DNA from: an uncultured Gammaproteobacteria bacterium
Lineage (GTDB): Bacteria > Pseudomonadota > Gammaproteobacteria > GCA-001735895
Direction: 5' to 3'
Length of the DNA: 56,364 bases
NCBI GenBank assembly: GCA_964480635.1
Contig: CAYZQE010000003.1
Location: forward strand, 1 to 56,364
Part shown: piece after piece, positions 33,065 to 53,517 of the stretch
How positions within the stretch are numbered: position 1 is the first letter of the stretch
How the letters are laid out: each line of letters begins with the position of its first letter
Made by a program: the position numbers and the translations under genes
Notes under the pieces: model-generated
Databases searched by the model: none
What the model was told of the DNA's origin: nothing
Seen by the model: only the letters and a program-made list of their open reading frames with translations

Positions 33065-33531
33065 TGCGCTTATTGTTATCCTTATGGATGATGTATTTTA
33101 GTCAAATGGCTTTTGCCCAGTGTGATGACTTATTTGCAGAGCCTGAGTTTGGTTTGGAGAACACTTGGTTGCCTCAAAGTAAAAGCTATGTCCAAGAGGT
33201 TAGTTTTAAAAAGGTTTGCGCTAAGCGGTCAACATGTTACTTAAAAAACGGGAGTGTTCGCGACCAATGTGACGAAGAGTATCATGATAATTTAGAGGCA
33301 GTTTGTAAGGCCGAGTACCCGTATAAAAATAAGTTATATGGGCGCTGTATGAAAAAAATAAATAAAGCGGCTAAATTGGTAAAGTTAGAAGGGGCGCAGT
33401 ATTTTAGATCTCAGAAAAGAAAAGCAGACCAAGAAAAAAGAGAGTCTAATAGAAAGCTAAGGGCTGAAAAAAGAAGGGATGGTTTCTTGCGGCGAGCCGA
33501 GGAAAGAAGGGATAAACGCTTGGGCAGGTAA
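33064..33531 (+). CDS. Secreted Cys-rich protein with a phospholipase A2-like Cys pattern but no His-Asp dyad
   Basis: Signal peptide (AFA/Q), six Cys, F...C-AKRST-CY....R..CD..Y...L...C...C......V...G..YF, basic tail. Confidence 0.6.
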   Translation: MRLLLSLWMMYFSQMAFAQCDDLFAEPEFGLENTWLPQSKSYVQEVSFKKVCAKRSTCYLKNGSVRDQCDEEYHDNLEAVCKAEYPYKNKLYGRCMKKINKAAKLVKLEGAQYFRSQKRKADQEKRESNRKLRAEKRRDGFLRRAEERRDKRLGR

Positions 33532-33603
33532 GGTATAATATTAGTATTGAAGCTGGTAAGAGCGGCGGATACGCCAAGATTAAAAAATAAAATAAAAAGC
33601 ACG

Positions 33604-33632
33604 TTGCATAAAGGCTCCTAACTTAATATAAT
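33604..33632 (+). promoter_or_regulatory. Sigma70 promoter of the atp operon
   Basis: TTGCAT - 17 nt - TATAAT, 24 nt upstream of atpI. Confidence 0.8.
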
Positions 33633-33656
33633 CTGCGCCGATTTATATGGGCTGTA

Positions 33657-34870
<1,214 letters not shown>

Positions 34871-34940
34871 ATTTTAAGCATAATGCTTAAAATCAGTTTT
34901 TAGTTTTATTTAATTTTTACATTTATTTAATTATCTTTAG

Positions 34941-35192
<252 letters not shown>

Positions 35193-35226
35193 GCACGAAT
35201 TTAAGTTTTAAGTTCGGGAGAACAAG

Positions 35227-35697
35227 ATGAATTTCAACGCAACCCTAATTGGACAATCAATCACTTTTTTAGTGTTTGTCTGGTTCTGCATGAAATATGT
35301 ATGGCCTCCGCTCATGCAGGCTCTTGAAGAGCGTCAAGCAAAAATAGCTGATGGCTTAGCGGCTGCTGAAAGAGGTCAAAAAGACCTTGAAAAAGCAAAA
35401 GCACAAGTCGGTGATGACATGAAGATTGCTAAAGAGCAAGCTCAAGAAATCATTAATCAAGCACAAAAAAGAGCATCAGAGATTGTTGATGAAGCAAAAG
35501 GTACAGCACGTACTGAAGCAGATAAGATTAAAGCATCTGCTGAAGCTGAAATGGAACAGTCACTTAATAGTGCTAAAGAGCAATTACGTAAAGATGTATC
35601 AGTGATTGCCTTATCTGGAGCTGAGCGGATTTTGAATAAAGAAATCGACGCGAAGGCTCACAGTGCAGTGCTTGATGACTTAATGGCGCAGATTTAA
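35227..35697 (+). CDS. atpF: ATP synthase subunit b
   Basis: [32 protein letters not shown]. Confidence 0.97.
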
Positions 35698-35701
35698 AGC
35701 T

Positions 35702-36253
35702 ATGTCAGATTTCGAGACAATCGCACGTCCCTATGCTAAGGCTGCATTTGCTAGCGCAAATGAAGCGAAGCAATTGGATCAGTGGTCTGAGTTTTTGGCA
35801 TTTGCTGCAATAGCGACAAATGATGACGTTATGGTTGGTTATTTAACTAACCCCGGTGTTTTATCTTCGGATAAAGCCAGGTTCATTATTGATGTGCTTG
35901 AGGCAGGTTTAACCGCAGCTAAGGTAAGCGACGAGCAGCGTAACTTTATTAAGTTATTGGCTGAAAATATTCGTCTCAATGCTTTTGATGCTATTTGCGA
36001 CCAATACGAAGCGCTTAAGCGTGAAGTAGATGGTGTAGTAGAAGTCAGAGTGGTTTCTGCGCGCAAATTAACAGCGGCTCAAACTAAAGCAATGACGGCT
36101 AAGTTAAAAACACGTTTAGGCAAAGATATTTTAATTACAGCAGAGGTTGACGCAACATTGTTAGCAGGCGCCGTAATTTATGCAGATGATGTGGTTATTG
36201 ACGGCACAGCACGCGGCAAATTAAACAAGTTAGCGAGTGCTTTAAATAAATAA
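35702..36253 (+). CDS. atpH: ATP synthase subunit delta
   Basis: TIARPYAKAAF, LLAEN.RL, VIDGTARGKL. Confidence 0.96.
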   Translation: MSDFETIARPYAKAAFASANEAKQLDQWSEFLAFAAIATNDDVMVGYLTNPGVLSSDKARFIIDVLEAGLTAAKVSDEQRNFIKLLAENIRLNAFDAICDQYEALKREVDGVVEVRVVSARKLTAAQTKAMTAKLKTRLGKDILITAEVDATLLAGAVIYADDVVIDGTARGKLNKLASALNK

Positions 36254-36325
36254 AGCTCAGCTGCTTAAAGAATTCAGTATTAACATTTAATATTTGTATT
36301 TATACATTTAAAAACAGGAAAAGAT

Positions 36326-37867
36326 ATGCAACTTAATCCTTCGGAAATAAGTGAACTTATTAAAGAGCGAATCAAAAACTTTGATAGCTCAACAGAAGCC
36401 AGAACAGAAGGCACTATCGTTAGTTTAACGGATGGTATTGCACGTGTTCATGGTCTTGCTGATGTTATGGCTGGTGAAATGATTGAATTTCCTGGTGATA
36501 CCTTCGGTATGGCACTTAACTTAGAGCGTGACTCAGTGGGTGCGGTTATCTTAGGTTCATATGGACACCTTTCTGAAGGCGATAAGGTTAAGTGTACGGG
36601 TCGTATTCTTGAAGTGCCGGTTGGCGAAGAGCTTCTAGGTCGAGTTGTCAACTCTCTAGGTGAACCACTTGACGGCAAAGGCGCTATTGACGCTAAACTT
36701 TTCTCACCTATCGAACGTGTTGCACCGGGTGTTATCGAGCGTCAATCAGTTAATCAACCTGTGCAAACAGGTATTAAAGCGATTGATGCGATGGTTCCAG
36801 TAGGGCGCGGTCAACGTGAACTCATCATCGGCGATCGTCAAACAGGTAAAACAGCGGTTGCGGTTGATGCCATCATCAACCAAAAAGGAACAGGCGTTAA
36901 ATGTATCTATGTGGCGATTGGTCAAAAAGCATCAACAATAGCGAATGTTGTTCGTAAGCTTGAAGAAAACGATGCTTTAGCACACACCATCATTGTTGCA
37001 GCAGCCGCTTCTGAATCAGCGGCTATGCAATACATTGCACCATATTCTGGTTGTTCAATGGGTGAATATTTCATGGATCGAGGTCAAGATGCCTTAATCG
37101 TCTATGATGATTTAACCAAACAAGCATGGGCTTACCGTCAGGTATCCTTATTGCTTCGTCGCCCTCCAGGTCGTGAAGCCTATCCAGGTGACGTATTCTA
37201 TTTACATTCCCGCTTATTAGAGCGTGCGGCTCGAGTCAATATTGCCTATGTAGAGAAATTTACAGAAGGCAAAGTAAAAGGTAAAACAGGTTCATTAACT
37301 GCTTTACCGATTATTGAAACTCAAGCGGGTGACGTATCAGCCTTCGTACCAACTAATGTCATCTCGATTACTGACGGTCAGATCTTCTTAGAAACAGATT
37401 TATTTAACGCCGGTATTCGTCCAGCAATAAACGCTGGTTTGTCCGTATCACGAGTGGGTGGTGCAGCACAGACTAAAATCATCAAGAAGTTAGGTGGTGG
37501 TGTGCGTTTAGTATTAGCTCAGTATCGTGAACTAGCCGCTTTCGCACAGTTTGCATCTGACCTAGACGAAGTCACTCGTAACCAACTAGCACGTGGGCAG
37601 CGAGTGACAGAATTGATGAAGCAGTTGCAATATGCACCTTTATCAGTGGCTGATATGGCCATGTCATTGTTCGCTGCTAACGAAGGTTTGTTAGACGATG
37701 TTGATGTTAAGAAGATCGTAGATTTTGAATTAGCCATGCATGCTTATTTGCAGTCAAACAGTGCTGACTTAATGGCGAGTATTAATGAGACTGGCGATTT
37801 TAACGATGATATTGCAGCGCAAATGACGACAGCAATTGAAGCGTTTAAGGCTAACGGCGTTTACTAG
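36326..37867 (+). CDS. atpA: ATP synthase subunit alpha
   Basis: [31 protein letters not shown]. Confidence 0.99.
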
Positions 37868-37904
37868 GCTTCCTAGTAATTTATTTGATATAAAGAGATA
37901 GCAA

Positions 37905-38768
37905 ATGGCAGTCGGTAAAGAGATACGCACCAAAATTAAGAGTATTCAAAACACTCAGAAAATTACTAAAGCTATGGAAATGGTAGCGGCTAGTAAAATG
38001 CGTAAAGCACAAGAGCGAATGACCGCAACACGTCCTTATGCAGATAAGATTAAGACCGTTGTGAGTCATATTGCATCATCACATCCTGAGTATAAGCATC
38101 CATATCTTGCATCACGTCCTGTGAAGCGCATAGGGTTGATAGCTGTATCCACTGATCGTGGTTTATGTGGCGGTTTAAACACTAACATGTTTAAAAAATC
38201 ATTGAATCAAATTGCAGAATGGGAAGATGCTGGGCATCAAGTTGATGTGGTTACTTTTGGTGGTAAGGCATTGAGCTTTTTCAGCAGAATTAAAAGCACA
38301 AATGTGGTTGCAGAAGCCAGCAAATTAGGTGATAAGCCTGATGTAATGGAAGTGATTGGTCCCGTTCAAGCTTTATTAAAAAGCTATGCAGATGGCAATG
38401 TTGATGAAATTTATCTCATCAGTAATGTGTATGAAAACACCATGACACAAACGCCAACTGTTCAGCAGTTAGTGCCTGTGGTACCGAGTAAAGAAGAAGA
38501 GTTGGGTCATCATTGGGATTACATTTATGAGCCAGGCTCTAAAGAAGTTTTAAACTCTGTATTAGACCGCTATATTGAATCTATTGTATATCAAGCTGTG
38601 GTTGAAAATGTGGCGTGTGAAATGTCATCACGTATGATTGCAATGAAATCAGCCACTGATAATGCAGGCGACTTAATTAAAGAGCTGCAACAAATTTATA
38701 ACCGCACCAGACAAGCAGCGATCACCCAAGAAATTAGTGAGATTGTAGCTGGCGCAGCGGCTGTTTAG
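37905..38768 (+). CDS. atpG: ATP synthase subunit gamma
   Basis: [34 protein letters not shown]. Confidence 0.99.
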
Positions 38769-38790
38769 TTAGCCTAAGTAAAGAATTTAA

Positions 38791-40218
<1,428 letters not shown>

Positions 40219-40265
40219 ATTTTTCATTCAGAGCATCCTTAAGTAACTAACCTTAGGTAATTATT

Positions 40266-40682
40266 GTGGCTTCAACAATTAATGTCGAAATAGTCAGTGC
40301 AGAAGAGTCTATCTTTTCTGGCGAGGCAGAAATGGTTTATGCACCCTGTATTATGGGTGAGATTGGTATTGCACCAAAGCATACACCCTTAATTTCACCA
40401 CTTAAGCCGGGTGAAATTCGCTTAGATACGGGTGATGGAAACGAAGTGTTTTTCTTTATTTCTGGTGGTATCATCGAAGTACAGCCGCACATGGTTACAG
40501 TGCTTGCTGATACAGCAATTCGTGCTAATGATTTAGATGAAGCGTCTGCCTTAGAAGCAAAAAAACGTGCTGAAACAGCCATTACAGATCAAAAATCAGG
40601 TGTTGATTTGGCGACTGCTAGAGGCGAATTAGCCGCTGCCGCCGCTCAAATTGCAGCGATTCATAAGCTTCGTAAAAAATAA
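40266..40682 (+). CDS. atpC: ATP synthase subunit epsilon
   Basis: EIVSAE, GEIGIAPKHTPL, SGGIIEVQP, VLADTAIR. Confidence 0.97.
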   Translation: MASTINVEIVSAEESIFSGEAEMVYAPCIMGEIGIAPKHTPLISPLKPGEIRLDTGDGNEVFFFISGGIIEVQPHMVTVLADTAIRANDLDEASALEAKKRAETAITDQKSGVDLATARGELAAAAAQIAAIHKLRKK

Positions 40683-42422: not shown

Positions 42423-42441
42423 CATGACGTTAAATTTTAAG

Positions 42442-42480
42442 AAAAGCCTGATTAGTGACTATTATTAATCAGGCTTTTTT
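42442..42480. terminator. Bidirectional terminator between sqr and the DsrC-like gene
   Basis: AAAAGCCTGATTA...TAATCAGGCTTTTTT. Confidence 0.85.
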
Positions 42481-42502
42481 TATACCCAGTTTTTTTGTGA
42501 AA

Positions 42503-42844
42503 TCAGCCAGAACTCCATGCCCTTGGCTTTTTCATACCGGCAATTTTACAGGCTTGTTTGACATAACCAAAAGGGAAAAGTCTAAACAAACGGTTATGTG
42601 CTACTTTTTTGGTGGTTTCGAAATTATCACGCATAAACATAATGGTGTGACGAGTGTCAGGTGCCACTTTATGCTCATCATAATATTTTCGCATAAAAAA
42701 TATTATCTCCCAATACTCATCGTCTAAAATTAATTGTTCATCTTCGGCCATTTGTTTACAGGCTTGAATACTCCAAGCATCAGGGTCAAATAAATACCCT
42801 TCAAAATCAGTTTCTATCGTTTCGTTATCAACTGTTAGCATCAT
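42503..42844 (-). CDS. TusE/DsrC-family protein lacking the terminal Cys
   Basis: ETDFEGYL.DP..WS, L.DEYWEIIFFMR.YY, LFP.GYVKQACKIAGMKKPRAWSSG. Confidence 0.85.
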   Translation of the reverse strand: MMLTVDNETIETDFEGYLFDPDAWSIQACKQMAEDEQLILDDEYWEIIFFMRKYYDEHKVAPDTRHTIMFMRDNFETTKKVAHNRLFRLFPFGYVKQACKIAGMKKPRAWSSG

Positions 42845-42845
42845 C

Positions 42846-44720
42846 CTATCCAGTGAAAATTCTAATGGTTTGGCTGATTTTTTCTTTTAAAGAGGTCTTT
42901 AAAATAGTATCTATTAGCTCATTAAATTTAAATTTATGGTGACGTTCATAAGCTACGCCCATTTGCGGCATATCAGCTAAGCCACTTTCACGAGCATGTT
43001 CTTCGAAGCCTTTATTTTTCCAAAAGAAAGCACCCGGCATGGTCGTTGGGATAACGACCACATAAAACAGTGCCCGACTAATCGCAATAGAGAACATTGC
43101 ACCAGCCATCATGATAATCCATATTAATGTATTGAACTCTATAAACATATGACTTGAAATAGCTAATATGAAAAGAGTTGGTAATAAAGCATTACGCAAA
43201 ATAAAAGCGTAACCATAGGTGGTTTGTTGTTCATAATATGAAGCCGATGCTTCAGATGCTGAGTTAAAGCTGTGTTTTCTGTGTGCTATTAACGCAATGG
43301 CCTCTAAGCTAAGTCCGGCCATAAAGACAAAAGACAAGACTTTTAAGTTGCCATTAAAATCAGAGAGTAAAGAGGCAATGGCAATAATAGAGCTACCTAA
43401 AGTCAATGCTGTAGCAACAAACGAGGCGTCGGTATGCCAGTGATGCCAAAAGGGGCGAGCGGGGATACGATATAATTGAATCATATAGTAAGCTCCTAAC
43501 AATCCGCCAAGGGCACTGATGACAGCAAAACCGTTTTGCAACCAAGCAAATAAGGTGATGTCATTAAAAAAGTGAAAGACAGTACAGCCGATTAATCCCA
43601 TAAAAAACAAGGATACACCGGCAATTTCACGGCTAACGGGTGACCACTTTAAATTATAAAAACCTCGATAAAACCGATGCGGTTTACCGAGGTGCATATT
43701 TAATTTGAATAAACCAGTACCTGAAATTAAGACTAAAACAGGAAGCAAAAAATTTAATACGTCATCAGATAAAGCAAAAGCTGCTACAAAAGGCATGGAT
43801 AATAGTAATAAAAATGCACCTATAACGGCTTGGGTGGTTAGTGTAAATGCAATGTGTGCATTTTCATGAGAGCTGAAAAGCGCCTTAATGTTAAAGGAAC
43901 GTTTATATCCATGTTTAGCATCTAGTGTCGGTTTAAATTCACCGTCATTACCTTCTTTATGATATTTAAGCGCGGTGCTATCAACACGATTCATATCGCG
44001 GTGTGCTGTTCGTTTTTGCTCAAAACGGATATTAGGCTTAGTGATTGAGGTGTCAGGAAAGCCCGGTATTTCTGTTTTGGCTTGAGTACGATTCTCAGGG
44101 ATGTCTTCAATTACACCAAAGTCTAAGGCGTTGCCTAAGCAAGCGGCGACGCAAGCAGGCTTTAAGCCGACTTCTAAGCGGTCAACACACATATTACATT
44201 TACTCACTTCACCTTTAACAGGGTCAAGCTGAGGTGCATTGTAAGGACACACCCATGTGCAGTAGCCACAGCCAAAACAGATGTCTGGGTCTTGTAATAC
44301 CGCGCCATATTCTGCAAATTTTGTATAGGCACGAGTCGGACAGCCTTTTAAGCACACTGGATCATCACAATGGTTACACGCCATTGAAATATTTAGGCGT
44401 TGATAAGCAGGATAAGTGCCGCCTTCAACAAAACCAACGGAGCGAAAGGCTAAATGTGACGGCACATCATTTTTTTCACTACAGGCAGATTCACAGGCAT
44501 GACAGCCAATGCAGTTATCGGCATTAAAATAAAAACCATGTTGCTTATAACGGTCAGGGTTTTCGTAGGGCTGTTCTTGCTGATTAATAACAAATGATTG
44601 GTTTTCTAATTTCGAATTATTAATCGTAGTGTTGATGGCACCACCGTATTGATTCGTTGTTTTGCTGTCTGAATGTTTCAGAATTGCATAGCTTGGTTCA
44701 TTGTCGCGTCTAGGAAACAT
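42846..44720 (-). CDS. Fused DmsB-like 4x[4Fe-4S] protein and DmsC-like membrane anchor
   Basis: CIGCHACESAC, CNHCDDPVCLKGCP, CFGCGYCTWVCP, CNMC..PACVAAC, then multiple TM helices with HLGKPHRFYR and WSPVSREI. Confidence 0.88.
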   Translation of the reverse strand: MFPRRDNEPSYAILKHSDSKTTNQYGGAINTTINNSKLENQSFVINQQEQPYENPDRYKQHGFYFNADNCIGCHACESACSEKNDVPSHLAFRSVGFVEGGTYPAYQRLNISMACNHCDDPVCLKGCPTRAYTKFAEYGAVLQDPDICFGCGYCTWVCPYNAPQLDPVKGEVSKCNMCVDRLEVGLKPACVAACLGNALDFGVIEDIPENRTQAKTEIPGFPDTSITKPNIRFEQKRTAHRDMNRVDSTALKYHKEGNDGEFKPTLDAKHGYKRSFNIKALFSSHENAHIAFTLTTQAVIGAFLLLLSMPFVAAFALSDDVLNFLLPVLVLISGTGLFKLNMHLGKPHRFYRGFYNLKWSPVSREIAGVSLFFMGLIGCTVFHFFNDITLFAWLQNGFAVISALGGLLGAYYMIQLYRIPARPFWHHWHTDASFVATALTLGSSIIAIASLLSDFNGNLKVLSFVFMAGLSLEAIALIAHRKHSFNSASEASASYYEQQTTYGYAFILRNALLPTLFILAISSHMFIEFNTLIWIIMMAGAMFSIAISRALFYVVVIPTTMPGAFFWKNKGFEEHARESGLADMPQMGVAYERHHKFKFNELIDTILKTSLKEKISQTIRIFTG

Positions 44721-46924
44721 TAAAAACTCCTCATTTCTTTACTCATAAGAGCCGCTGATTTTTGATCTTCTAAAATTTCAATGCGCACGGCAGATTGCTT
44801 ATATGCAGGTTGTCGTGAATGAGGGTCAAGTAAACCAAGGGTTAAGCGATTAGCGCAGTCATGAAAATGAAAAGGTAAGAAAATCATATTTTTGGGGACA
44901 CGTTGCGTGGGCGTTGCCATCACAATGGCATCAGAACGGCGTGAGACTAAACGTACATATTCACCACGTAAAATACCTAATTCAGCAGCTAAATCAGGAT
45001 TGATTTCAATAAATGGAATCGGACTAAATTTATTGTTGTTAGCTACTTTGCCCGTTTTTGTACGGCCATGCCAGTGTTCAACAAGGCGACCTGTGTTTAA
45101 CCAAACTGGGAATTTTTCATCGGGTACTTCATTGTTATCTATGAAGGGTAAGGGGATCAGTTTAGCCTTGCCATCAGCATAACGAAATTCACCATCTTTG
45201 GTATATAAACGCACACCACCCTTGGCTGGCACTTCATTGGCATCACGTTGTTGCTCTGTATAAGGCCACTGGATGCCACGGTGTTTTTCGATCAGCTCAT
45301 GGTCTAAGCCAGAGATATCAGCGAGACGACCTTTTGATATTTCTCGCATTTCTAAAAACACATCGGCGGCTTTGTCTGGAAATTTTACTTTATTATCAGT
45401 ATTAAAGCGTTTTGCTAATTCATTAAAAATCCACAAATCGGGCTGTGCCTCACCGGGGGCTTTAATCACGGGTTTAACCACATTAACTCGGCGTTCGGTG
45501 TTGGTCATGACACCGTCTTTTTCTGCCCATGTGCCTGCTGGTAAATAGACGTGAGCATATTGTGCGCTTTCAACGTCTTCATAACAGTCTTGCACCACGC
45601 AAAAATCGAGCTTTTCCATCGCCTTGCGCACACGCGCCGAATTGGGTAATGACGATAATGGGTTGGTGGCGATGAGCCAGATGCCTTTTATTTCACCTGT
45701 TTCAATCGCATGATAAATGTCGGTTTGGAACATACCTCGTTTTTTAGGTAAGAACTCTTCGTCAATGTTCCAATATTCGGCTATTTCTTTACGATCATCA
45801 GCATTTTCTAGGGTGCGATAATTAGGCAAACCAGAGCAAGAAGACCATTCGCGCGTGCCCATGGCATTACATTGGCCGGTGATGGATAAGCTGGTGCCGC
45901 CAGGTATGCCAATGTTGCCCGTAATGAGCGATAAATTGTTGATGCCCACCACGCCATCAGAGCCATGTGTTGATTGGTTAATGCCCATAGTCCAAAAAGA
46001 CATGGCTGCTTTTGCCTTGCCATAAAGGCGAGCGACCACACGAATGGTATCTTCATCAATGCCGCAGATTTTAGCGGCTGTGGTGGGATCGTATTTGGCG
46101 ACTTCAGCTTTTAATTCTTCTAGGCCATTGGTATTGGCTTCGATATAGGCATCGTCTTGTAAGTTCTCAGCGAAGATGACATGCATTAACGCATTTTGCA
46201 GTACAACGTCTGTTCCTGGAGTAATGGGCAGATGGATATCAGCACATTGGGCTAACATGGTCACACGCGGGTCGATGACAATTAAAGGAAACCCTGTGCG
46301 TTCTTGTGCTTCTTTCATACGCCAGTAAATAATGGGGTGTTGCTCGGGTAAGTTAGAGCCCCAAGCCATTAAACAGTCGGTGTGTTCAAAGTCTTCATAA
46401 CAGCCTGGTGGGCCGTCGGAACCAAACGAGCGTTTATAGCCTGATACGGCTGATGCCATACACAAAGTGGTGTTGCCATCGTAATTATTGGTGCCGATTA
46501 AGCCACGAGTCAGCTTGCCCAGAGTATAAAACTCTTCGGTGAGCATTTGACCAGTTGAGATAACCGCAAATGAATCTCGACCATGTTCTTGTTGTACTTT
46601 TTTAATGCCTTGGTAGGTGGCATCTAATGCGCTATCCCAATCCGTTGATTGCCAATCTTGATGCCATTGGTCACGGACTTTTGGTACTAAACCACGCCCT
46701 GCAGATTCAAATAATTCGTGTTCAAAAATACCTTTTAAGCACAGCTTGCCTCGGTTTACATCGGCATCAGCCACACCGCGAGAAGAAACCGCTCGGCCTT
46801 CTTTGGTTAAACCAACTTCTATAGCACAACCTGTTGAGCAATAACCACAAGTGGCATATTTCCATTCAACGATGCCTTTATCGTTGATTTTTATGGGGTT
46901 CTTTTGGGTTCTGCCGAATAACAT
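44720..46924 (-). CDS. nasA: Assimilatory-type nitrate reductase catalytic subunit (Mo-bisPGD), NasA/NarB-like
   Basis: CGYCSTGC...KLCLKG [4Fe-4S], NYDGNTTLCMASA, GQCNAMG, LNTGR..EHWH, PAYKQSAV; no Tat motif and no C-terminal BFD domain. Confidence 0.85.
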   Translation of the reverse strand: MLFGRTQKNPIKINDKGIVEWKYATCGYCSTGCAIEVGLTKEGRAVSSRGVADADVNRGKLCLKGIFEHELFESAGRGLVPKVRDQWHQDWQSTDWDSALDATYQGIKKVQQEHGRDSFAVISTGQMLTEEFYTLGKLTRGLIGTNNYDGNTTLCMASAVSGYKRSFGSDGPPGCYEDFEHTDCLMAWGSNLPEQHPIIYWRMKEAQERTGFPLIVIDPRVTMLAQCADIHLPITPGTDVVLQNALMHVIFAENLQDDAYIEANTNGLEELKAEVAKYDPTTAAKICGIDEDTIRVVARLYGKAKAAMSFWTMGINQSTHGSDGVVGINNLSLITGNIGIPGGTSLSITGQCNAMGTREWSSCSGLPNYRTLENADDRKEIAEYWNIDEEFLPKKRGMFQTDIYHAIETGEIKGIWLIATNPLSSLPNSARVRKAMEKLDFCVVQDCYEDVESAQYAHVYLPAGTWAEKDGVMTNTERRVNVVKPVIKAPGEAQPDLWIFNELAKRFNTDNKVKFPDKAADVFLEMREISKGRLADISGLDHELIEKHRGIQWPYTEQQRDANEVPAKGGVRLYTKDGEFRYADGKAKLIPLPFIDNNEVPDEKFPVWLNTGRLVEHWHGRTKTGKVANNNKFSPIPFIEINPDLAAELGILRGEYVRLVSRRSDAIVMATPTQRVPKNMIFLPFHFHDCANRLTLGLLDPHSRQPAYKQSAVRIEILEDQKSAALMSKEMRSF

Positions 46925-47164: not shown

Positions 47165-47479
47165 TTAAGACAATGCCTGTATAAACACCATACCATTTTC
47201 AACTTTGGTATTAAACGTATTCACACAGCCTTCGTCTGCGCCCATGGCTTCGCCACTGGTTAAATCAATTTTCCAGTTATGTAATGGGCATGTTACTGAA
47301 CTGCCGTGAACAATGCCTTGTGATAACGGGCCTTTTTTATGAGGGCATTCGTCTTTAACCGCAAATACGTCGTTATTACTGTTCTTAAAAATAGCGATGT
47401 TCATGGTCGCTGTTTTCACAACACGTGAGCCTAATGCCGGAATGTCGTCTAATGCTACTACTTCTGTCCAGTTACTCAT
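47165..47479 (-). CDS. nirD: Nitrite reductase small subunit, Rieske ferredoxin
   Basis: CPHKKGPLSQG...VTCPLHNW, with intact Rieske ligands. Confidence 0.92.
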   Translation of the reverse strand: MSNWTEVVALDDIPALGSRVVKTATMNIAIFKNSNNDVFAVKDECPHKKGPLSQGIVHGSSVTCPLHNWKIDLTSGEAMGADEGCVNTFNTKVENGMVFIQALS

Positions 47480-47481: not shown

Positions 47482-49929
47482 TTAACCTGCCGCGTTCATA
47501 TTTGTGATCTCAATTTGAGTAAACTCATGCTTTTGTGCGCCTTCGGCACGTTCTTTCCATGGGTCAGATTGCGAGAATGATTGGCTGAATCTAAAGCGTT
47601 CTGCTAAAGCCGTGCGTTCTGCCTCATCATTCATAATACAATCTTGCACATAGGTGAAACCAACGCGTTCTACCCAAGGGGCTGTGCGTTCAAGATAATG
47701 TGCTTCTTCACGGTATTTTTGGGTAAAGGCAGCACAATATTCTAATACGTCTTCTTCTGTTTCTACCTTGCCGAGTAAATCGGTCACACGAACTTTGATG
47801 CCGCCGTTGCCGCCAATATGAAGCTCATAACCAGAGTCAACACACACCACACCAAAGTCTTTAATCGTCGCTTCTGCACAGTTACGTGGACAACCTGATA
47901 CCGCAAGTTTGTATTTATGCTGCATCCAAGAGCCCCAAGTAAGCTGTTCTAGCTTAACACCTAAGCCGGTTGAGTCTTGAGTACCGAAGCGGCACCAGTT
48001 TGAACCAGCACAGGTTTTAACCGTACGCATCGCCTTGCCATAAGCATGACCAGAAACAAACCCAGCGGCTGATAAATCTTTCCACACGCCGGGTAAGTCT
48101 TCTTTTTTGATGCCAAACATATCAATGCGTTGACCACCTGTGACTTTCATTTCTGGGATTTCAAATTTATCACACACATCGGCTATAGCGCGTAGCTCGT
48201 TAGGCTTAACTAAGCCACCAAACATACGTGGCACAACAGAATAAGTACCGTCTTTTTGAATATTGCCATGAGCGCGTTCATTAATAAAACGAGACTGCGC
48301 ATCATCTTTATATTCGGCAGGCCAACGTGCTAATAAGTAATAGTTAAGTGCTGGGCGACAGGTGGCGCAACCGTCTGGTGTTTTCCAGTTCAGGTATGAA
48401 CGTAACGTGCCCATGTCTTTTAATTCTTCTGTTTTAATCGCATTAATCACATCGTCATGGCTGTGATCGGTACAAGCACATAAAGGTTTTTTGCTTGGCT
48501 TGTCATCGTAACCTTCGCCAACAGTCGACGCTAAAATACATTCCACTAAACCGGTGCAAGAACCACAAGATGATGAAGCTTTGGTATGGGCTTGAACCTC
48601 AGCTAAGGTGAATAAACCTTTTTTAACAATGGTGTCGATGATGTCGCCTTTATTAACACCATTACAGCCGCAAATTTCGGCATCATTAGATAATGACATA
48701 ACCGCCGCATCACCGTGTCCTGCATCACCTAAGTCGTGCTGACCAAACATGATGGTGCGACGGAAATCTTTAATGTTGGTGCCTTCACGTAATAGTTGGA
48801 AGTACCAAGTGCCGTCTAGTGTATCGCCATATAAAACAGCGCCCACTAGCTTGTCATCTTTAATCACTAATTTTTTATAAATGCCGCTGCTGGTGTCTTC
48901 CATCATTAAGACTTCATCACCGTCTTTTTCGTTAAACTCGCCAGCTGAAAATAAATCAATGCCTGTGACTTTAAGTTTGGTAGAAGTCACAGAACCTTCA
49001 TAACGGGCAATGCCATATTGCGCTAAATGATTGGCAGCAACCTTAGCTTGTTCAAATAGTGGTGCTACTAGGCCGTAACACATGCCTCTATGTTGAACGC
49101 ACTCGCCAACCGCATAAATTTTTGGGTCATAAGTTTGCATGGTGTCGTTAACCACAATGCCACGTTCACAATAAATGCCGGCTTCTTGCGCTAGTGCCAT
49201 ATTGGGTCGAATACCAACAGCCATAACAACCAAATCAGCATCTTGCTCTTTGCCATTAGCAAAGCGAACACCGCTGACTTTATCATTACCCAAAATTTCG
49301 GCCGTTTGTGCTTCCATTAAAAAGGTAAGTCCACGTTCTTCTAATGATATTTTTAACATGGCTGATGCCGTTGCATCTAATTGGCGCTCCATTAATGAAT
49401 CGAGAAGGTGAACGACGGTCACGTTCATGCCTTGTTTCATTAAGCCATTAGCAGCCTCAAGCCCTAATAAACCACCCCCAATAACAACTGCATTTTTACC
49501 CGTTTTAGCCGCTGCAACCATTTGCTCTACGTCGGCAATATCTCTGAAACCAATGCAACCTATTTTGTCAGCACCAGGAATGGGAATGATAAAAGGATTA
49601 GAGCCTGTTGCTATGAGCAATTTATCGTAAGGGAATTTTTTACCACTTTCAGTGATCACTGCGCGTTGGACGCGATCAATTTTTGTGGCTGTATCACCCG
49701 TGACCAGTTTAATGTTATTTTCTTCGTACCACTGGGATGAATTAAGAATGATGTCATCAATTGTTTTTTCGCCAGCTAAAACAGGCGACAGCATGATGCG
49801 GTTGTAATTGTTATGGGGCTCAGAACCGATTACCGTGATGTCATATTCTACATCAGTAATTTTAAACAGCTCTTCTAGTGTGCGTACACCCGCCATACCA
49901 TTACCAATTAAAACTATTTTTTCGCTCAT
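47482..49929 (-). CDS. nirB: NAD(P)H-dependent nitrite reductase large subunit
   Basis: GNGMAG, YNRIMLS, GGGLLGLEAA, ICGCNGV, SCGSC, RTVKTC.G...C, SGCPRNCAE. Start moved to MSEK. Confidence 0.95.
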   Translation of the reverse strand: MSEKIVLIGNGMAGVRTLEELFKITDVEYDITVIGSEPHNNYNRIMLSPVLAGEKTIDDIILNSSQWYEENNIKLVTGDTATKIDRVQRAVITESGKKFPYDKLLIATGSNPFIIPIPGADKIGCIGFRDIADVEQMVAAAKTGKNAVVIGGGLLGLEAANGLMKQGMNVTVVHLLDSLMERQLDATASAMLKISLEERGLTFLMEAQTAEILGNDKVSGVRFANGKEQDADLVVMAVGIRPNMALAQEAGIYCERGIVVNDTMQTYDPKIYAVGECVQHRGMCYGLVAPLFEQAKVAANHLAQYGIARYEGSVTSTKLKVTGIDLFSAGEFNEKDGDEVLMMEDTSSGIYKKLVIKDDKLVGAVLYGDTLDGTWYFQLLREGTNIKDFRRTIMFGQHDLGDAGHGDAAVMSLSNDAEICGCNGVNKGDIIDTIVKKGLFTLAEVQAHTKASSSCGSCTGLVECILASTVGEGYDDKPSKKPLCACTDHSHDDVINAIKTEELKDMGTLRSYLNWKTPDGCATCRPALNYYLLARWPAEYKDDAQSRFINERAHGNIQKDGTYSVVPRMFGGLVKPNELRAIADVCDKFEIPEMKVTGGQRIDMFGIKKEDLPGVWKDLSAAGFVSGHAYGKAMRTVKTCAGSNWCRFGTQDSTGLGVKLEQLTWGSWMQHKYKLAVSGCPRNCAEATIKDFGVVCVDSGYELHIGGNGGIKVRVTDLLGKVETEEDVLEYCAAFTQKYREEAHYLERTAPWVERVGFTYVQDCIMNDEAERTALAERFRFSQSFSQSDPWKERAEGAQKHEFTQIEITNMNAAG

Positions 49930-50032
49930 GTGTTCCTCAGCATTGAATTTGATTGGGCGCATTTTACATAGCTATTAGTGATTTTCTAATAATATGCTTT
50001 TATATCAATTAAAATATTAGTATTTGCTTACA

Positions 50033-50158: not shown

Positions 50159-50274
50159 GGAGACACTGAATAACCGCGATTAGAATTTTACTGAGAAAAA
50201 TGTGCGTCGAATTTAACGGAAGTTGTCGTGCATTTTAGCGAGTAAAAAATAATTGGCGGTTGTTTAATGTCTCC
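50159..50274. mobile_element. MITE-like inverted-repeat element, copy 2 (116 bp)
   Basis: Near-identical to 46977-47133 except for a 40-bp internal deletion, one fewer A and a few substitutions. Confidence 0.65.
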
Positions 50275-50301
50275 TTGACTAGCGATCACTTGGATTCATA
50301 C

Positions 50302-51771
50302 ATGAATACAACCAAACTCAACCTGTTTTCTTTTAGCGGTAACATTCGCACACTGCATATTACTTGGGTGGCATTTTTTATCTCGTTCATGGTTTGGTTT
50401 AATCATGCGCCTTTAATGGTGATCTTACGTGATTCTTTTGGCCTATCAGACCAAGAAGTGGGTGTGATTTTAATTATGAATTTGGCCTTAACAATACCAG
50501 CAAGAATTATTGTTGGTATGTTGGTAGACAGGTTTGGGCCGCGCCTATTATTTTCTTTTATTCTTGTTTTAGCAGGTGTTTTAACCATCCCTTTTGCCTT
50601 GGCTAATTCATTTGAGCAGTTGGCTGTCTCACGTTTACTGTTAGGCTTTGTTGGTGCTGGATTCGTTGTTGGTATTCGTTTAATCGGTGAATGGTTTCCA
50701 GCAAAACAAACGGGGTTAGCTCAAGGTATTTATGGTGGCTGGGGTAATTTTGGTTCAGCTGGCTCAGCGATGATACTGCCTATATTAGCTTTTTGGTATG
50801 GTGGTGATAATGGTTGGCGTTACGCTATTTTGTCCACAGGTGCCGTGGCTATTTTATACGGCGTGTATTTTTATTTTTCAGTGTCTAATACACCAAAAGG
50901 AGCCACTTATTTTAAAACAAATAAAATCGGTGCTTTAGAAGTCACCAGCAAAGTCGATTTGTTTCTCTATTTATTCATGACCATACCCTTATATGCGGCA
51001 CTGGCCTTAGTGGTATGGAAATTATCAGATGGCAATTTAGGTTGGCTCAGTAATAGTGTGTCGTATAGTATTTATGCCATTATTTTGACTGTTTATTTGT
51101 GGCAAGCTTGGAGCATAATATCAATCAATAAAGGTGTTTTCATCAAAAAAACACCAAAAATGTTTCGTTACTCATTTAAGCAAGTCGCGGTGCTAGATTT
51201 AGCATATATGGTGACTTTTGGTTCGGAGTTAGCGTTAGTGTCTATGTTGCCGCTATTTTATACCGATATGTTTGGTCTTTCTTTGGTGTTGGCGGGAGTT
51301 TTAGCGGGTATTTATCCTGTCATTAACTTAATTGCTCGCCCAAGTGGAGGCATTATGAGTGATCGCATCGGTCGAAAAAAGTCGTTAGTTATTTTGTTTT
51401 CAGGCATTACGGTTACCTTTTTTCTATTAGGGCAAGTGTCAAGTGAGTGGGCTGTCGCTCTGGTGGTCATTAATACCATAGCGTGTGGCTTGTTTGCTCA
51501 AGGTGGTTCGGGTGCAGTCTATGCCATGGCACCTCTTATTCAGCGCCGCCAAACGGGACAAATTGCAGGCATGGTCGGGGCTTATGGTAATGTGGGGGGG
51601 TTAGTTTTTTTAACGGTGCTGTCATTTACGCTACCACAAACTTTCTTCATGGTGATTGCTTTTACCGCATTGGTTGTTCTAATTGTTATGATAATCTTTT
51701 TGAAAGAACCTTCAGGGCAAACTGCAGAAGTAATGCCAGATGGGACGGTACAAATGATTGATGTGTCTTAA
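50302..51771 (+). CDS. NarK/NasA-family nitrate/nitrite MFS transporter
   Basis: WVAFFISFMVWF, TIPARIIVGMLVDRFGPR, GFVGAGFVVGIR, GGWGNFG, ARPSGGIMSD. Start moved to MNTTK. Confidence 0.92.
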   Translation: MNTTKLNLFSFSGNIRTLHITWVAFFISFMVWFNHAPLMVILRDSFGLSDQEVGVILIMNLALTIPARIIVGMLVDRFGPRLLFSFILVLAGVLTIPFALANSFEQLAVSRLLLGFVGAGFVVGIRLIGEWFPAKQTGLAQGIYGGWGNFGSAGSAMILPILAFWYGGDNGWRYAILSTGAVAILYGVYFYFSVSNTPKGATYFKTNKIGALEVTSKVDLFLYLFMTIPLYAALALVVWKLSDGNLGWLSNSVSYSIYAIILTVYLWQAWSIISINKGVFIKKTPKMFRYSFKQVAVLDLAYMVTFGSELALVSMLPLFYTDMFGLSLVLAGVLAGIYPVINLIARPSGGIMSDRIGRKKSLVILFSGITVTFFLLGQVSSEWAVALVVINTIACGLFAQGGSGAVYAMAPLIQRRQTGQIAGMVGAYGNVGGLVFLTVLSFTLPQTFFMVIAFTALVVLIVMIIFLKEPSGQTAEVMPDGTVQMIDVS

Positions 51772-51798
51772 TCATATTTTATTTTTTTAGAGTTATTT

Positions 51799-53517
51799 AT
51801 GACAACAAAATTATCGGTCACTATTGGGCAATCATCAGACAAAGGCATTAAACAGCGAAATGAAGATTTTTATGGCACCTTAATTCCTAATGATGACAGT
51901 TTAGAAACTAAAGGCATTGTCTGTGCTATTGCCGATGGTATGGGCAGTTGTGAATTCGCGGCTGAAGCGAGTGAGCAGTGCGTAAAGTCATTTCTCAATG
52001 ATTATTACAGTACTCCAGAAGCATGGTCAGTAAAAAAATCGGCAGGTAAGGTGCTGACAGCGACTAATAATTGGTTGTTAAGCCAAAATAAAAATGATGC
52101 TGTGCATGGCATGGTGACGACCTTTAGTGCGCTAATTCTAAAATCGACGACAGCACATATATTTCATGTGGGTGACTCACGTATTTATCGTTTACGCGGT
52201 GATGATTTAGAACAGTTGACTAATGACCATCGTATTAATGTATCGGATAGCAAAAGCTATCTAAGCCGCGCTATGGGCATAGATCATTTGTTGGATATTG
52301 ATCTTAAAACAGTGTCGATGCAGGTGGGTGATCTGTATTTAATGACGACTGATGGTATTCATGATTATATGTCGGCTATTCAATTAAAGGTATTTTTACA
52401 GCAGCCTTTTGACTCTTTAGATGAACAGGCAAAATATATTGCAGATGCGGCATTAAAAGCCAAAAGCCACGATAACGTGACAGTGCAATTGGTGCGCATT
52501 GATGCAATACCTAATCAAGATGAAAGCGAAGTTTTTTCACGCCTCAGTAAATTGCCCTTTCCCCCACATTTAGGCCCAGGCATGACCGTTGATGGTTATG
52601 AAATTTTAGAAGAGATTTATGCCAGTACCACATCACAGCTGTATAAGGTAAGAGATAAAGAAAGTGGTGAATATTTCGCCATGAAAACACCATCGGTTAA
52701 TTTTGAAGATGACGTGGCTTATATTGATCGCTTTTATATGGAAGAGTGGGCAGGAAAGCGCTTAAATAGTCATTTGGTGCTTAAAATTCACGAACTCCCT
52801 CGAACACGTAATTTTTTATACATGATTATGGAGCTGGTAGAAGGCATTACTTTGCGCGATTGGATGAAGGGTAACCCAGACCCAGATATTGATGACGTGA
52901 TTGAAATGACTGAAAAAATCAGTGCAGGCATACGCGTATTGCATCGCATGGATATGCTACACCGTGATTTAAAGCCAGAAAACATTATGATAACTGAGAG
53001 TCAGGCCATTAAAATTATCGACTTTGGTTCAATAAAAATTGCAGGTATTTCAGAAATTGCTACGCCTTTAGAAAAAACAGAATTATTAGGCACAAAAAAT
53101 TATACCGCTCCCGAGTGCTTACAAGGTATGGGCTCCGATCAACGCGGCGATATTTTTGCTTTAGGGGTGATGGTGTATGAAATGTTTACAGGGGCTTTGC
53201 CTTATGGCGACAAAATGGGACGAAATCTAAATGCTCGCTCTATCAATAAATTAAAATATCAATCAGCATCGGCTATAAACCCCATGATTCCCTTATGGAT
53301 AGATGGCGCTATAGAAAAAGCAGTGCGCGTTGACCATAACTACCGCTATGAAGTATTTTCAGAGTTTTTATTCGATTTAAAAAAGCCAAACGCTAATTTT
53401 AGTGACCGTTCAATACCGTGGGTAGAAAAAGACCCTGCTTTGGTTTGGAAATCAATTTCGGCGGGACTATTAATCATTAATTTAGTCATGCTTTATTGGT
53501 TGGTAATTGCACCATAA
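51799..53517 (+). CDS. Bifunctional PP2C phosphatase / Ser-Thr kinase with C-terminal TM
   Basis: NEDF, IADGMG, HVGDSRIY, TTDG, SHDN (PP2C); FAMK, HRDLKPENI, DFG, YTAPE (kinase). Confidence 0.9.
   Translation: MTTKLSVTIGQSSDKGIKQRNEDFYGTLIPNDDSLETKGIVCAIADGMGSCEFAAEASEQCVKSFLNDYYSTPEAWSVKKSAGKVLTATNNWLLSQNKNDAVHGMVTTFSALILKSTTAHIFHVGDSRIYRLRGDDLEQLTNDHRINVSDSKSYLSRAMGIDHLLDIDLKTVSMQVGDLYLMTTDGIHDYMSAIQLKVFLQQPFDSLDEQAKYIADAALKAKSHDNVTVQLVRIDAIPNQDESEVFSRLSKLPFPPHLGPGMTVDGYEILEEIYASTTSQLYKVRDKESGEYFAMKTPSVNFEDDVAYIDRFYMEEWAGKRLNSHLVLKIHELPRTRNFLYMIMELVEGITLRDWMKGNPDPDIDDVIEMTEKISAGIRVLHRMDMLHRDLKPENIMITESQAIKIIDFGSIKIAGISEIATPLEKTELLGTKNYTAPECLQGMGSDQRGDIFALGVMVYEMFTGALPYGDKMGRNLNARSINKLKYQSASAINPMIPLWIDGAIEKAVRVDHNYRYEVFSEFLFDLKKPNANFSDRSIPWVEKDPALVWKSISAGLLIINLVMLYWLVIAP

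What the first reader, a model, noticed from the sequence alone, without database searches (positions are those of the whole stretch)
42503..42844. DsrC/TusE-like protein lacking the persulfide-carrying terminal Cys, embedded in a nitrate operon
Seen: the C-terminus is QACKIAGMKKPRAWSSG. The upstream Cys of the DsrC Cys-x10-Cys motif is kept and the terminal Cys position holds Trp. The gene starts 1 nt after the fusion's stop codon, and no dsr or tus genes are in the window. Established: DsrC and TusE carry sulfur on the terminal Cys. Inference: a non-canonical role such as a maturation factor, redox/sulfur sensor or subunit of the reductase.
Basis: partly seen in the sequence, partly recalled or inferred. 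Interest (0 to 1): 0.6.

Follow-up and report, generated by a model that had tools for sequence, protein, structure and literature searches.

The report
DsrC-like protein with tryptophan-tipped arm
This small gene encodes a relative of the sulfur-carrier protein DsrC that has lost its sulfur-carrying cysteine; it belongs to a widespread, sharply conserved but unstudied branch found in sulfur-oxidizing bacteria, often beside nitrate and nitrite genes, and is probably a modulator, not a part of the nitrate reductase.

Summary
A 113-aa gene on the minus strand (42503-42844) is a DsrC/TusE-family protein. It starts 1 nt after the stop of the DmsB-DmsC fusion and is the last gene of nirB-nirD-nasA-dmsBC. 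Cys99 sits in the CysB column and Trp110 in the CysA column.

It is not a one-off. It belongs to a clade with a nearly invariant tail, FPYGYVKQACKIAGM[KR][KR]PRAWSTG. That tail is in 119 of 120 closest database clusters and in at least 561 species genomes.

In an even sample of its class, 40 of 401 genomes carry the clade. DsrB was found in 39 of the 40, and the 40th has dsrH-C-M-K at a contig end.

Neighbourhoods vary but recur: a divergent LysR regulator, the putative nitrite transporter HPP, narGHJI, nirBD, dsrN/dsrR, and dsrAB-dsrC with NnrS.

No other member sits in an intact nasA-dmsBC cluster. Most fusion-bearing relatives lack it, and one relative keeps it beside a decayed nasA.

It is therefore a CysA-less ("RspA-type") DsrC paralogue of rDsr sulfur oxidizers, not a dedicated reductase subunit. 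Its likeliest role is a sulfur-free DsrC mimic or modulator that links sulfur oxidation to nitrate/nitrite reduction; this mechanism is inferred.

The parts
42503..42844 (-). The gene itself: a 113-aa CysA-less DsrC paralogue of the 'PRAWSTG' clade (P0001)
   Evidence: ORF and translation; Pfam DsrC E 4.2e-28; TIGR03342 at 92.3 bits; AF2 model pLDDT 90.1; Foldseek TM 0.85 to A. vinosum DsrC 1yx3
42506..42550 (-). Codons of the C-terminal arm, Cys99 to Gly113 (CKIAGMKKPRAWSSG): Cys99 in the CysB position, Trp110 in the CysA position
   Evidence: Alignment with own DsrC, TusE-like and variants; tail invariant in alignment A1 and present in 119 of 120 closest clusters
42438..42482 (-). Terminator-like hairpin after the stop; it lies between this gene and the convergent sqr-like gene
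   Evidence: RNA fold -15.9 kcal/mol, z -3.45, 0 of 200 shuffles fold as well, followed by UUUUCUU. The simple terminator scan missed it
42846..44720 (-). DmsB-like 4Fe-4S domain fused to a DmsC-like membrane anchor (624 aa); its stop is 1 nt before this gene's ATG
   Evidence: Pfam Fer4_11 and DmsC; orthologues in 10 of 60 relatives, with NasA upstream wherever the flank is seen
44720..46924 (-). NasA/NasC-like molybdopterin nitrate reductase catalytic subunit (734 aa). I saw no twin-arginine signal in the N-terminus
   Evidence: Pfam Molybdopterin, Molydop_binding and Molybdop_Fe4S4; NCBIfam NasC and NasA models, below their cut-offs; sequence
47165..47479 (-). nirD, nitrite reductase small subunit
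   Evidence: TIGR02378 at 101.4 bits against a cut-off of 74.65
47482..49962 (-). nirB, siroheme NAD(P)H nitrite reductase large subunit; first gene of the operon
   Evidence: TIGR02374 at 949.5 bits against a cut-off of 578.35
50260..51771 (+). Divergent narK-type nitrate/nitrite transporter, followed by a PP2C-Ser/Thr kinase fusion (51799-53517)
   Evidence: TIGR00886 at 306.6 bits; Pfam Pkinase and PP2C_2

Best explanation
The gene encodes a member of a distinct, strongly conserved clade of DsrC paralogues. Members keep the DsrC fold and the CysB cysteine. The sulfur-carrying CysA is replaced by an invariant Trp inside an invariant basic tail, M-[KR]-[KR]-P-R-A-W-S-T-G. In the published classification this is an 'RspA-type' (CysA-less) DsrC-like protein.

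Shown: the clade is confined to bacteria that have the reverse dissimilatory sulfite reductase (rDsr) system. Its genes recur next to nitrate, nitrite and NO genes and next to dsr genes. It is not tied to NasA-DmsBC.

Inferred: the protein cannot act as a persulfide or trisulfide carrier. Its arm is as conserved as DsrC's own arm, so it most likely docks into a protein partner that normally receives the DsrC arm (DsrAB, DsrK or DsrEFH). There it would act as a sulfur-free mimic or modulator that adjusts cytoplasmic sulfur oxidation when nitrate or nitrite is being reduced. In this genome it has come under control of the nirBD-nasA-dmsBC operon, in place of the LysR regulator that usually sits beside it.
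For: Family and fold:
- Pfam and NCBIfam matches.
- AF2 model pLDDT 90.1 and TM 0.85 to A. vinosum DsrC.
- phmmer E 6.8e-18 to 1yx3.

Clade:
- 119 of the 120 closest clusters end ...PR[AGV]WS[TS]G and all 120 keep the Cys.
- There are 27 invariant columns, 14 of them in the last 24 residues.
- At least 561 GTDB species genomes carry it.
- 28 of the best 150 50%-identity representatives carry the tail.
- The quick tree puts the 71 PRAW rows, with two 'WC' variants nested among them, on one branch (SH-aLRT 89); with the L099 variant added the support is 90. This branch is apart from DsrC, TusE and a third paralogue group.

rDsr restriction:
- The tail pattern is in 40 of 401 class genomes, with 0 hits to the reversed control pattern.
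- DsrB is in 125 of 400 genomes, including 39 of the 40 positives.
- The 40th positive (G436) has dsrH-dsrC-dsrM-dsrK starting at a contig end.

N-oxide link:
- In the 80 closest loci: narGHJI in 14, HPP in 21, a divergent LysR in 26, dsrMK..N-X-dsrR in 12.
- In 42 evenly sampled loci: narG within 8 kb in 6, nirBD directly upstream in 2, HPP in 4, and dsrAB-CBS-dsrC-X-DUF2249-NnrS in 3.
- 6 of the 15 narG-bearing positive genomes have the gene within 8 kb of narG.
- NarG is in 15 of 40 positives against 10 of 80 DsrB+ negatives.
- NirB is in 32 of 40 against 43 of 80.
- Either one is in 36 of 40 against 47 of 80 (my tally of those four calls).

Independence from NasA.

Published context: CysB occurs only in DsrAB organisms (PMC3397948, introduction passage). 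CysA-less DsrC-likes are read as RspA (PMC9371685 passage).
Against: - No binding, expression or phenotype data exist. The complex predictor was unavailable and no RNA run was listed.
- About half of the loci (about 25 of 80; 21 of 42) show no recurrent neighbour.
- HPP is no commoner in positive genomes: 26 of 40 against 53 of 80.
- The enrichment for NarG and NirB is moderate and kin are not independent.
- In the negative set only 7-10 first-look candidates per genome were scored, so those counts are floors. Six of the 86 negatives were dropped because of the 80-handle limit.
- 25 of 40 positive genomes have no NarG.
- One second paralogue (G038:C41) keeps PRAWSTG but has Val for the Cys, so a thiol role is not universal.
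- Docking to a Dsr partner is inference from arm conservation and co-occurrence only.
Confidence: 0.45

Rival explanations
1. Transcriptional regulator or co-regulator (the published RspA idea). The DsrC fold carries a helix-turn-helix-like motif, and the protein would bind DNA or a regulator to control sulfur and nitrogen genes. Cys99 would act as a redox or persulfide sensor.
For: CysA-less DsrC-likes are read as 'regulatory sulfur-related proteins' (PMC9371685 passage; family name in PMC8477390). The commonest neighbour is a divergently transcribed, well conserved LysR regulator: 26 of 80 loci and 11 of 42. The gene sits at the ends of quite different operons (nar, nas, dsr). HK/RR pairs, a BTAD regulator and Crp occur nearby in some loci.
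Against: A divergent LysR usually regulates its neighbour, which makes this gene a target and not necessarily a regulator. The most conserved part is the flexible C-terminal arm, not the helical core, and that fits a protein pocket better than DNA. Foldseek finds only DsrC structures at E <= 0.001; DNA-binding folds appear only at E > 0.9. One paralogue lacks the Cys. This genome has no orthologue of the associated LysR; the best match is 26-29% identical.
Confidence: 0.25
2. Partner of a siroheme enzyme that handles nitrite. The arm would enter the substrate channel of NirB (or of DsrAB acting on nitrite), or the protein would protect siroheme enzymes from nitrite or NO.
For: Siroheme and nitrite themes recur in the neighbourhoods. 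These include nirBD directly upstream (own locus, L147, L149), NirB within 9 kb in 5 SUP05-type loci, and dsrN (siroheme amidase-like) and cysG in 8-12 beta-proteobacterial loci. HPP, a putative nitrite transporter, also recurs (Maeda 2014, as cited in a PMC7438415 passage). NnrS and DUF2249 lie downstream in L162-164, and a nitrobindin-like gene lies upstream in L069. NirB is in 32 of 40 positives against 43 of 80 negatives.
Against: 8 of 40 positive genomes have no NirB hit. NirB in model bacteria works without such a partner (established knowledge, recalled). No structural or binding test could be run.
Confidence: 0.12
3. Dedicated accessory subunit, electron or thiol partner, or maturation (e.g. 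Moco sulfuration) factor of the NasA-DmsBC nitrate reductase.
For: The gene is translationally coupled: 1 nt separates the dmsBC stop from its ATG. It is the last gene of the operon. Clade relatives with other tails follow the fusion in 2 more of 10 orthologous loci (L096, L099). In SUP05-type loci the gene follows narI and is followed by moaA, moaC, moeA and mobA.
Against: Counting the window's own locus, 8 of 11 fusion loci lack any DsrC-like gene downstream, including the same-genus genome. Among the fusion-bearing genomes, G001, G005, G006 and G024 and G045, G051 and G055 have no clade gene. G002 has only a 'WC' variant, on another contig. None of 122 other clade loci holds an intact nasA-dmsBC. 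The gene survives intact where nasA has decayed. The clade tracks DsrAB (39 of 40), not Mo enzymes.
Confidence: 0.08
4. Decaying or functionless DsrC duplicate that merely lost its active cysteine.
For: It is present or absent within one genus at this site.
Against: The frame is intact. The tail is nearly invariant at only about 50% overall identity across at least 26 families. A confident DsrC fold is predicted.
Confidence: 0.02

Closest known systems
DsrC of sulfur oxidizers (Allochromatium vinosum DsrC, PDB 1yx3)
   Same: Same family and fold: phmmer E 6.8e-18, TM 0.85 and 35% identity. It has the same CysB-containing 'QACK.AG' stretch and a flexible C-terminal arm, and it occurs in DsrAB-containing genomes.
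   Different: CysA, the sulfur-binding penultimate Cys, is Trp. The tail is KKPRAWSSG instead of LPKPTGCV and is 2 residues longer. The gene is not in the dsr cluster here. The genome has a separate canonical DsrC.
TusE (tRNA 2-thiouridine sulfur relay, E. coli)
   Same: Same Pfam and TIGR family.
   Different: It lacks the Cys that accepts sulfur. It scores 78.2 bits against the equivalog cut-off of 191. A separate TusE-like paralogue ending RPKGCS exists on contig C26.
RspA, 'regulatory sulfur-related proteins': CysA-less DsrC-like proteins (Venceslau et al. 2014, seen only as cited in PMC9371685 and PMC8477390)
   Same: It lacks CysA, keeps the DsrC fold, and occurs as an extra paralogue in DsrAB organisms.
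   Different: The original paper could not be read here. I therefore cannot say whether it singles out the PRAWSTG tail or the nitrate/nitrite neighbourhoods. No paper in the searched library holds the string RAWSTG. The regulatory role of RspA is a proposal, not a tested function.
Viral dsrC_1 genes of SUP05 phages (Roux et al. 2014, eLife, section 11 read)
   Same: [quoted passage not shown]
   Different: No PRAWSTG-type gene was found on viral contigs: 4 weak partial loci only.

Membership tests
DsrC/TusE/DsvC superfamily (PF04358, TIGR03342) | Sequence match above the curated cut-offs | tested here: met
   PF04358 at 98.3 bits against 24.9; TIGR03342 at 92.3 bits against 53.5
DsrC/TusE/DsvC superfamily (PF04358, TIGR03342) | DsrC fold (beta-hairpin plus helical bundle with a flexible C-terminal arm) | tested here: met
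   AF2 pLDDT 90.1, last 3 residues below 50. The top 8 Foldseek hits are all DsrC/TusE structures, TM 0.70-0.85
Bona fide DsrC (sulfur-carrying partner of DsrAB) | Strictly conserved penultimate cysteine (CysA) | tested here: not met
   Trp110 occupies that column. The requirement is stated in a PMC3397948 passage
Bona fide DsrC (sulfur-carrying partner of DsrAB) | Second cysteine (CysB) 11 residues upstream | tested here: met
   Cys99 aligns with the Cys of own DsrC 'QACKYAG'
Bona fide DsrC (sulfur-carrying partner of DsrAB) | Motif AGLPKPTG(not N)CA with at most one difference (DiSCo criterion, PMC8477390 passage) | tested here: not met
   The tail is AGMKKPRAWS, with more than one difference
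Bona fide DsrC (sulfur-carrying partner of DsrAB) | Genome encodes DsrAB | tested here: met
   dsrAB lie on contig C10
TusE | Sulfur-accepting C-terminal Cys and equivalog-level similarity | tested here: not met
   There is no Cys in the last 14 residues. NF008562 scores 78.2 bits against a cut-off of 191
RspA-type (CysA-less) DsrC-like proteins | Lacks CysA; extra paralogue in a DsrAB organism | tested here: met
   definition as cited in a PMC9371685 passage
RspA-type (CysA-less) DsrC-like proteins | Regulatory or DNA-binding function | not testable with these tools
   Only context (a divergent LysR in 26 of 80 loci) bears on it
'PRAWSTG' clade (defined here) | Tail ...GYVKQACKIAGM[KR][KR]PR[AGV]WS[TS]G and placement in the clade | tested here: met
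   The tail has Ser for Thr at 112, as in its 76%-identical relative P0003. In the quick tree the 71 PRAW rows and two nested 'WC' variants share a branch with SH-aLRT 89 (90 with the L099 variant)
Nitrate reductase accessory subunit or chaperone (NarJ/NapD-like or a NasA partner) | Homology to a known accessory family, or consistent co-occurrence with the reductase | tested here: not met
   There is no such Pfam or NCBIfam match. Co-occurrence with NasA-DmsBC fails

The most novel reading that the evidence does not exclude
The PRAWSTG clade is a natural 'decoy DsrC'. Its Trp-tipped basic arm would enter the channel of a siroheme enzyme (rDsrAB, perhaps also NirB) or the DsrK site in place of DsrC's cysteine arm. 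This would gate or re-purpose the enzyme when nitrate respiration or assimilation fills the cytoplasm with nitrite. That would be a protein-level switch coupling the sulfur and nitrogen cycles in sulfur-oxidizing denitrifiers, including SUP05 and chemosynthetic symbionts.
Probability: 0.15. Interest if true: 0.75.

Novelty: new variant of a known kind. Interest (0 to 1): 0.5.

Why it matters
DsrC is the central sulfur-handling protein of dissimilatory sulfur metabolism. Its many paralogues in sulfur oxidizers are counted in genome papers but left unexplained.

This work gives one of them a sharp definition: an invariant Trp-tipped tail, restriction to rDsr organisms, presence in about a third of the DsrB-positive genomes sampled, and recurrent placement beside narGHJI, nirBD, HPP, NnrS and dsr genes.

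That turns a vague 'DsrC-like' label into a testable candidate for the link between sulfur oxidation and nitrate/nitrite reduction. The organisms concerned drive sulfide-dependent denitrification: the SUP05 clade, Thiobacillus-like betaproteobacteria and mussel and clam symbionts.

It also has a practical use. Annotation pipelines name these proteins TusE or 'sulfur relay protein' (names seen), which they cannot be. Counting them as DsrC inflates inferences about sulfur metabolism.

Tried and rejected
It was then declared unavailable. Nothing was folded, so there is no verdict.
2. The look-up of sequencing runs for RNA: no RNA holder was listed.
4. Viral contigs: no PRAWSTG-type gene, only 4 weak partial loci. 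A phage-borne origin was not pursued.
5. HPP as a genome-wide correlate was rejected: 26 of 40 against 53 of 80.
6. An orthologue of the clade-associated LysR in this genome: none, best match 26-29% identical.
7. The simple terminator scan missed the hairpin after the gene; folding found it.
8. My first greedy ORF caller failed in GC-rich loci. It was replaced by all-ORF clustering.
9. The careful tree did not finish in the time allowed, so the quick tree is reported.
10. Neighbours in loci without a recurrent theme were scanned. They are a mixed bag: HdrB/C-like, GCV_H, CysZ, Crp, nitrobindin-like and housekeeping genes.
11. Literature: searches for 'DsrC-like' with 'nitrate reductase', for T. 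denitrificans with dsrC and 'denitrifying conditions', and for the motif strings gave nothing on this clade. The Venceslau 2014 review that defines RspA is not in the library and was seen only through citations.

Full report
WHAT IS THERE

The ORF at 42503-42844 lies on the minus strand and encodes 113 residues ending QACKIAGMKKPRAWSSG. It matches Pfam DsrC at E 4.2e-28 and TIGR03342 (TusE/DsrC/DsvC) above its cut-off. It scores far below the TusE equivalog cut-off, 78.2 bits against 191.

It is the last gene of a minus-strand operon:
- nirB (47482-49962)
- nirD (47165-47479)
- a NasA/NasC-like molybdoenzyme (44720-46924)
- a DmsB-DmsC fusion (42846-44720)

The fusion's TAG lies at 42848-42846, one base follows, and the ATG lies at 42844. 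A hairpin (-15.9 kcal/mol, z -3.45) with a U-rich tail follows the stop and faces the convergent sqr-like gene. No dsr or tus gene is in the window.

Aligned with the genome's own DsrC (…QACKYAGLPKPTGCV), Cys99 is CysB and Trp110 stands where CysA should be. The only addition is the strand.

THE GENOME HAS FOUR DsrC-FAMILY GENES
- A canonical dsrC inside a complete dsrABEFHCMKLJOPN-dsrR cluster, followed by a histidine kinase and response regulator pair.
- A TusE-like gene ending RPKGCS.
- A Cys-poor paralogue ending RKGGY.
- This gene.

The organism is therefore an rDsr sulfur oxidizer, and this is an extra paralogue. It is neither its DsrC nor its TusE.

IT BELONGS TO A SHARPLY DEFINED CLADE

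Of the 120 closest 90%-identity clusters (374 hits in all), 119 end …PR[AGV]WS[TS]G. The exception has Gly for Trp. All 120 keep the Cys.

At only about 50% overall identity, 27 columns are invariant, and 14 of them lie in the last 24 residues (F90 … G113). At least 561 GTDB species genomes encode it. Of the best 150 representatives at 50% identity, 28 carry the tail.

A quick ML tree of 97 rows puts the 71 such sequences, with two 'RRPT[AS]WCVG' variants nested among them, on one branch (SH-aLRT 89). Adding the 'MRKPLKVLLDL' variant (L099) gives a branch with SH-aLRT 90. This branch is apart from DsrC, TusE and the RKGGY group. The tree has few columns, and the careful search did not finish.

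The AF2 model is confident (pLDDT 90.1) except for the last three residues. It superposes on A. vinosum DsrC at TM 0.85.

WHERE THE CLADE OCCURS

A back-translated tail pattern (up to 2 mismatches) hit 40 of 401 evenly drawn genomes of the class. The reversed control pattern gave no hits.

DsrB (TIGR02066, E <= 1e-30) is in 125 of 400 of the same genomes. It is in 39 of the 40 pattern-positive genomes. The 40th (G436) has dsrH-dsrC-dsrM-dsrK starting 3 bases from a contig end, so its dsrAB is probably unassembled.

The clade was thus found in 39 of 125 DsrB-positive genomes and in 1 of 275 others, across 26 families. This agrees with the published remark that CysB is found only in DsrAB organisms (PMC3397948, introduction passage).

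NEIGHBOURHOODS

In the 80 loci most like the query (a biased set, the best 80 of 561), I clustered all ORFs and named one representative per cluster with Pfam. The results were:
- A divergent LysR regulator in 26 loci.
- HPP (PF04982) in 21 loci. One member of that family transports nitrite (Maeda 2014, as cited in PMC7438415).
- narK-narGHJI upstream in 13 loci, plus narGH downstream in 1. These are SUP05, Thioglobus, Ruthturnera and Bathymodiolus-symbiont records, usually followed by HPP and moaA/moaC/moeA/mobA.
- dsrMK..JOPN - X - IscA-like dsrR - HK/RR - cysG in 12 beta-proteobacterial loci.
- No recurrent neighbour in about 25 loci.
- A nasA-dmsBC cluster in none.

In the unbiased set (42 loci, ±8 kb, from the 39 other positive genomes):
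- A divergent LysR in 11 loci.
- HPP in 4 loci, with a CBS protein between HPP and X in 2 of them.
- narG within 8 kb in 6 loci, from five families.
- nirB-nirD directly upstream in 2 loci.
- dsrA-dsrB-CBS-dsrC-X-DUF2249-NnrS in 3 loci of one genus.
- No recurrent theme in 21 loci.

Six of the 15 narG-bearing positive genomes have X within 8 kb of narG, which chance does not explain.

Genome-wide comparisons, positives against DsrB-positive negatives:

| Gene | Positives | Negatives | Calls |
|---|---|---|---|
| NarG | 15 of 40 | 10 of 80 | 67, 68 |
| NirB | 32 of 40 | 43 of 80 | 71, 72 |
| NarG or NirB | 36 of 40 | 47 of 80 | my tally of the four calls |
| HPP | 26 of 40 | 53 of 80 | 40, 41 |

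Caveats:
- Kin are not independent.
- 6 of the 86 negatives were dropped because of a handle limit.
- In the negative runs only 7-10 candidates per genome were scored.
- The pattern may miss divergent members.

IS IT A PART OF THE NasA-DmsBC REDUCTASE?

The distribution says no.
- Full-length orthologues of the fusion occur in 10 of 60 relatives, with NasA upstream wherever the flank is visible.
- Only two of these are followed by a DsrC-like gene, and both carry other tails (L096 RRPTSWCVG, L099 MRKPLKVLLDL).
- The same-genus genome has 179 unrelated bases at this spot. That genome is 69% complete.
- Five family relatives with the fusion have no PRAWSTG gene by a whole-genome DsrC scan.
- Three further fusion carriers are pattern-negative.
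- In G107 the arrangement is nirB-nirD-[nasA remnants covering only residues 1-44 and 127-194, with no adjacent dmsBC fusion]-X, and X is intact. Its congener G277 has nirD-X with nothing between.

The gene therefore outlives nasA-dmsBC, and nasA-dmsBC works without it. This genome has no narG, no HPP and no orthologue of the associated LysR (the genome is 91.7% complete). Here the gene appears to have been placed under the control of the nitrate-assimilation operon.

HOW IT MOST LIKELY WORKS

Shown:
- DsrC fold.
- No CysA.
- An invariant Trp-tipped basic arm.
- Restriction to rDsr organisms.
- Non-random proximity to nar, nir, HPP, NnrS and dsr genes.

Inferred: the arm is the part of DsrC that enters its partners (DsrAB, DsrEFH, DsrK; PMC3397948 and PMC8477390 passages). 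It is also the most conserved part of this clade. The protein therefore probably docks into such a partner without carrying sulfur. It would act as a mimic or modulator expressed when nitrate or nitrite is being reduced.

The published alternative, an RspA-type regulator (PMC9371685 passage), is the main rival. It is favoured by the LysR neighbour. It is disfavoured because conservation is concentrated in the flexible arm, and because one paralogue (G038:C41) keeps PRAWSTG while replacing the Cys with Val.

A role with siroheme nitrite chemistry (NirB, or DsrAB acting on nitrite) is a bolder variant of the main reading.

WHAT IS KNOWN

CysA-less DsrC-like proteins are recognised as a class (RspA), and multiple DsrC paralogues in sulfur oxidizers are often noted (PMC1951784 passage). 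SUP05 phage dsrC_1 genes also lack the second Cys (PMC4164917 section 11), but no PRAWSTG-type gene was found on viral contigs.

I found no paper in the library with the string RAWSTG, and none linking a DsrC-like protein to nitrate reductase genes in this sense. The defining review (Venceslau 2014) could not be read. Figures and supplements that I could not see may show this tail.

VERDICT

The gene is a member of a well-defined but functionally untested variant of the DsrC family. The clade-level pattern (Trp arm, rDsr restriction, N-oxide neighbourhoods) is the interesting part.

Noticed in passing
window 42846-46924 (minus strand): The NasA-like catalytic subunit shows no visible twin-arginine signal. 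It is followed by a DmsB-like FeS domain fused to a DmsC-like membrane anchor. This pairing is conserved in 10 of 60 relatives, with NasA upstream wherever the flank is seen. It looks like a cytoplasm-facing, quinol-linked assimilatory nitrate reductase, with an architecture reminiscent of SoeABC.
   Followed up: partly
L096 (G016) 1721-2065 and L197 (G002): A sister variant of the clade ends RRPT[AS]WCVG. It keeps the Trp and has a Cys directly after it. In G016 it follows the DmsBC fusion; in G002 it lies on another contig.
   Followed up: partly
L147 (G107:C15), about 8830-9193: Decayed nasA remnants (residues 1-44 and 127-194 only, 84-96% identical to the window's NasA) lie between nirD and an intact PRAWSTG gene. 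A BTAD/PAS regulator, a cytochrome c gene and a second-type narGH lie downstream.
   Followed up: partly
L162-L164 (genus g125): An unusual dsr arrangement: dsrA-dsrB-CBS protein-dsrC-PRAWSTG gene-DUF2249-NnrS. A CBS-pair protein stands where dsrEFH stands in this genome.
   Followed up: no
G038:C41:17017-17069: A second paralogue in one genome keeps the PRAWSTG tail but reads Val in place of the conserved Cys (KQAVKIAGMKKPRAWSTG).
   Followed up: no
window 50260-53517 (plus strand): narK is followed directly by a PP2C phosphatase-Ser/Thr kinase fusion. The same narK-kinase pair stands next to nirB in L045 and L147, which suggests a conserved nitrate-linked signalling module.
   Followed up: no
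window 15454-16107 and 10749-11711; L148/L150 and L171: DUF3047 and a T6SS Tle1-like phospholipase-domain gene occur in the window 27-31 kb from the finding. The same two families are immediate upstream neighbours of PRAWSTG genes in other genomes (L148/L150 and L171). This may be coincidence.
   Followed up: no
G000 contig C10 6224-6508 and relatives L191, L193-L196: A third conserved DsrC-like paralogue group ends ...KIGG[CM]P[QM]STRKGGY, with neither canonical Cys. It is present in all five family relatives checked.
   Followed up: no
window 28458-40682: mnmG-rsmG-parA-parB followed by the atp operon, the usual origin-proximal gene set. The nas/nir operon therefore lies near the likely replication origin.
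   Followed up: no
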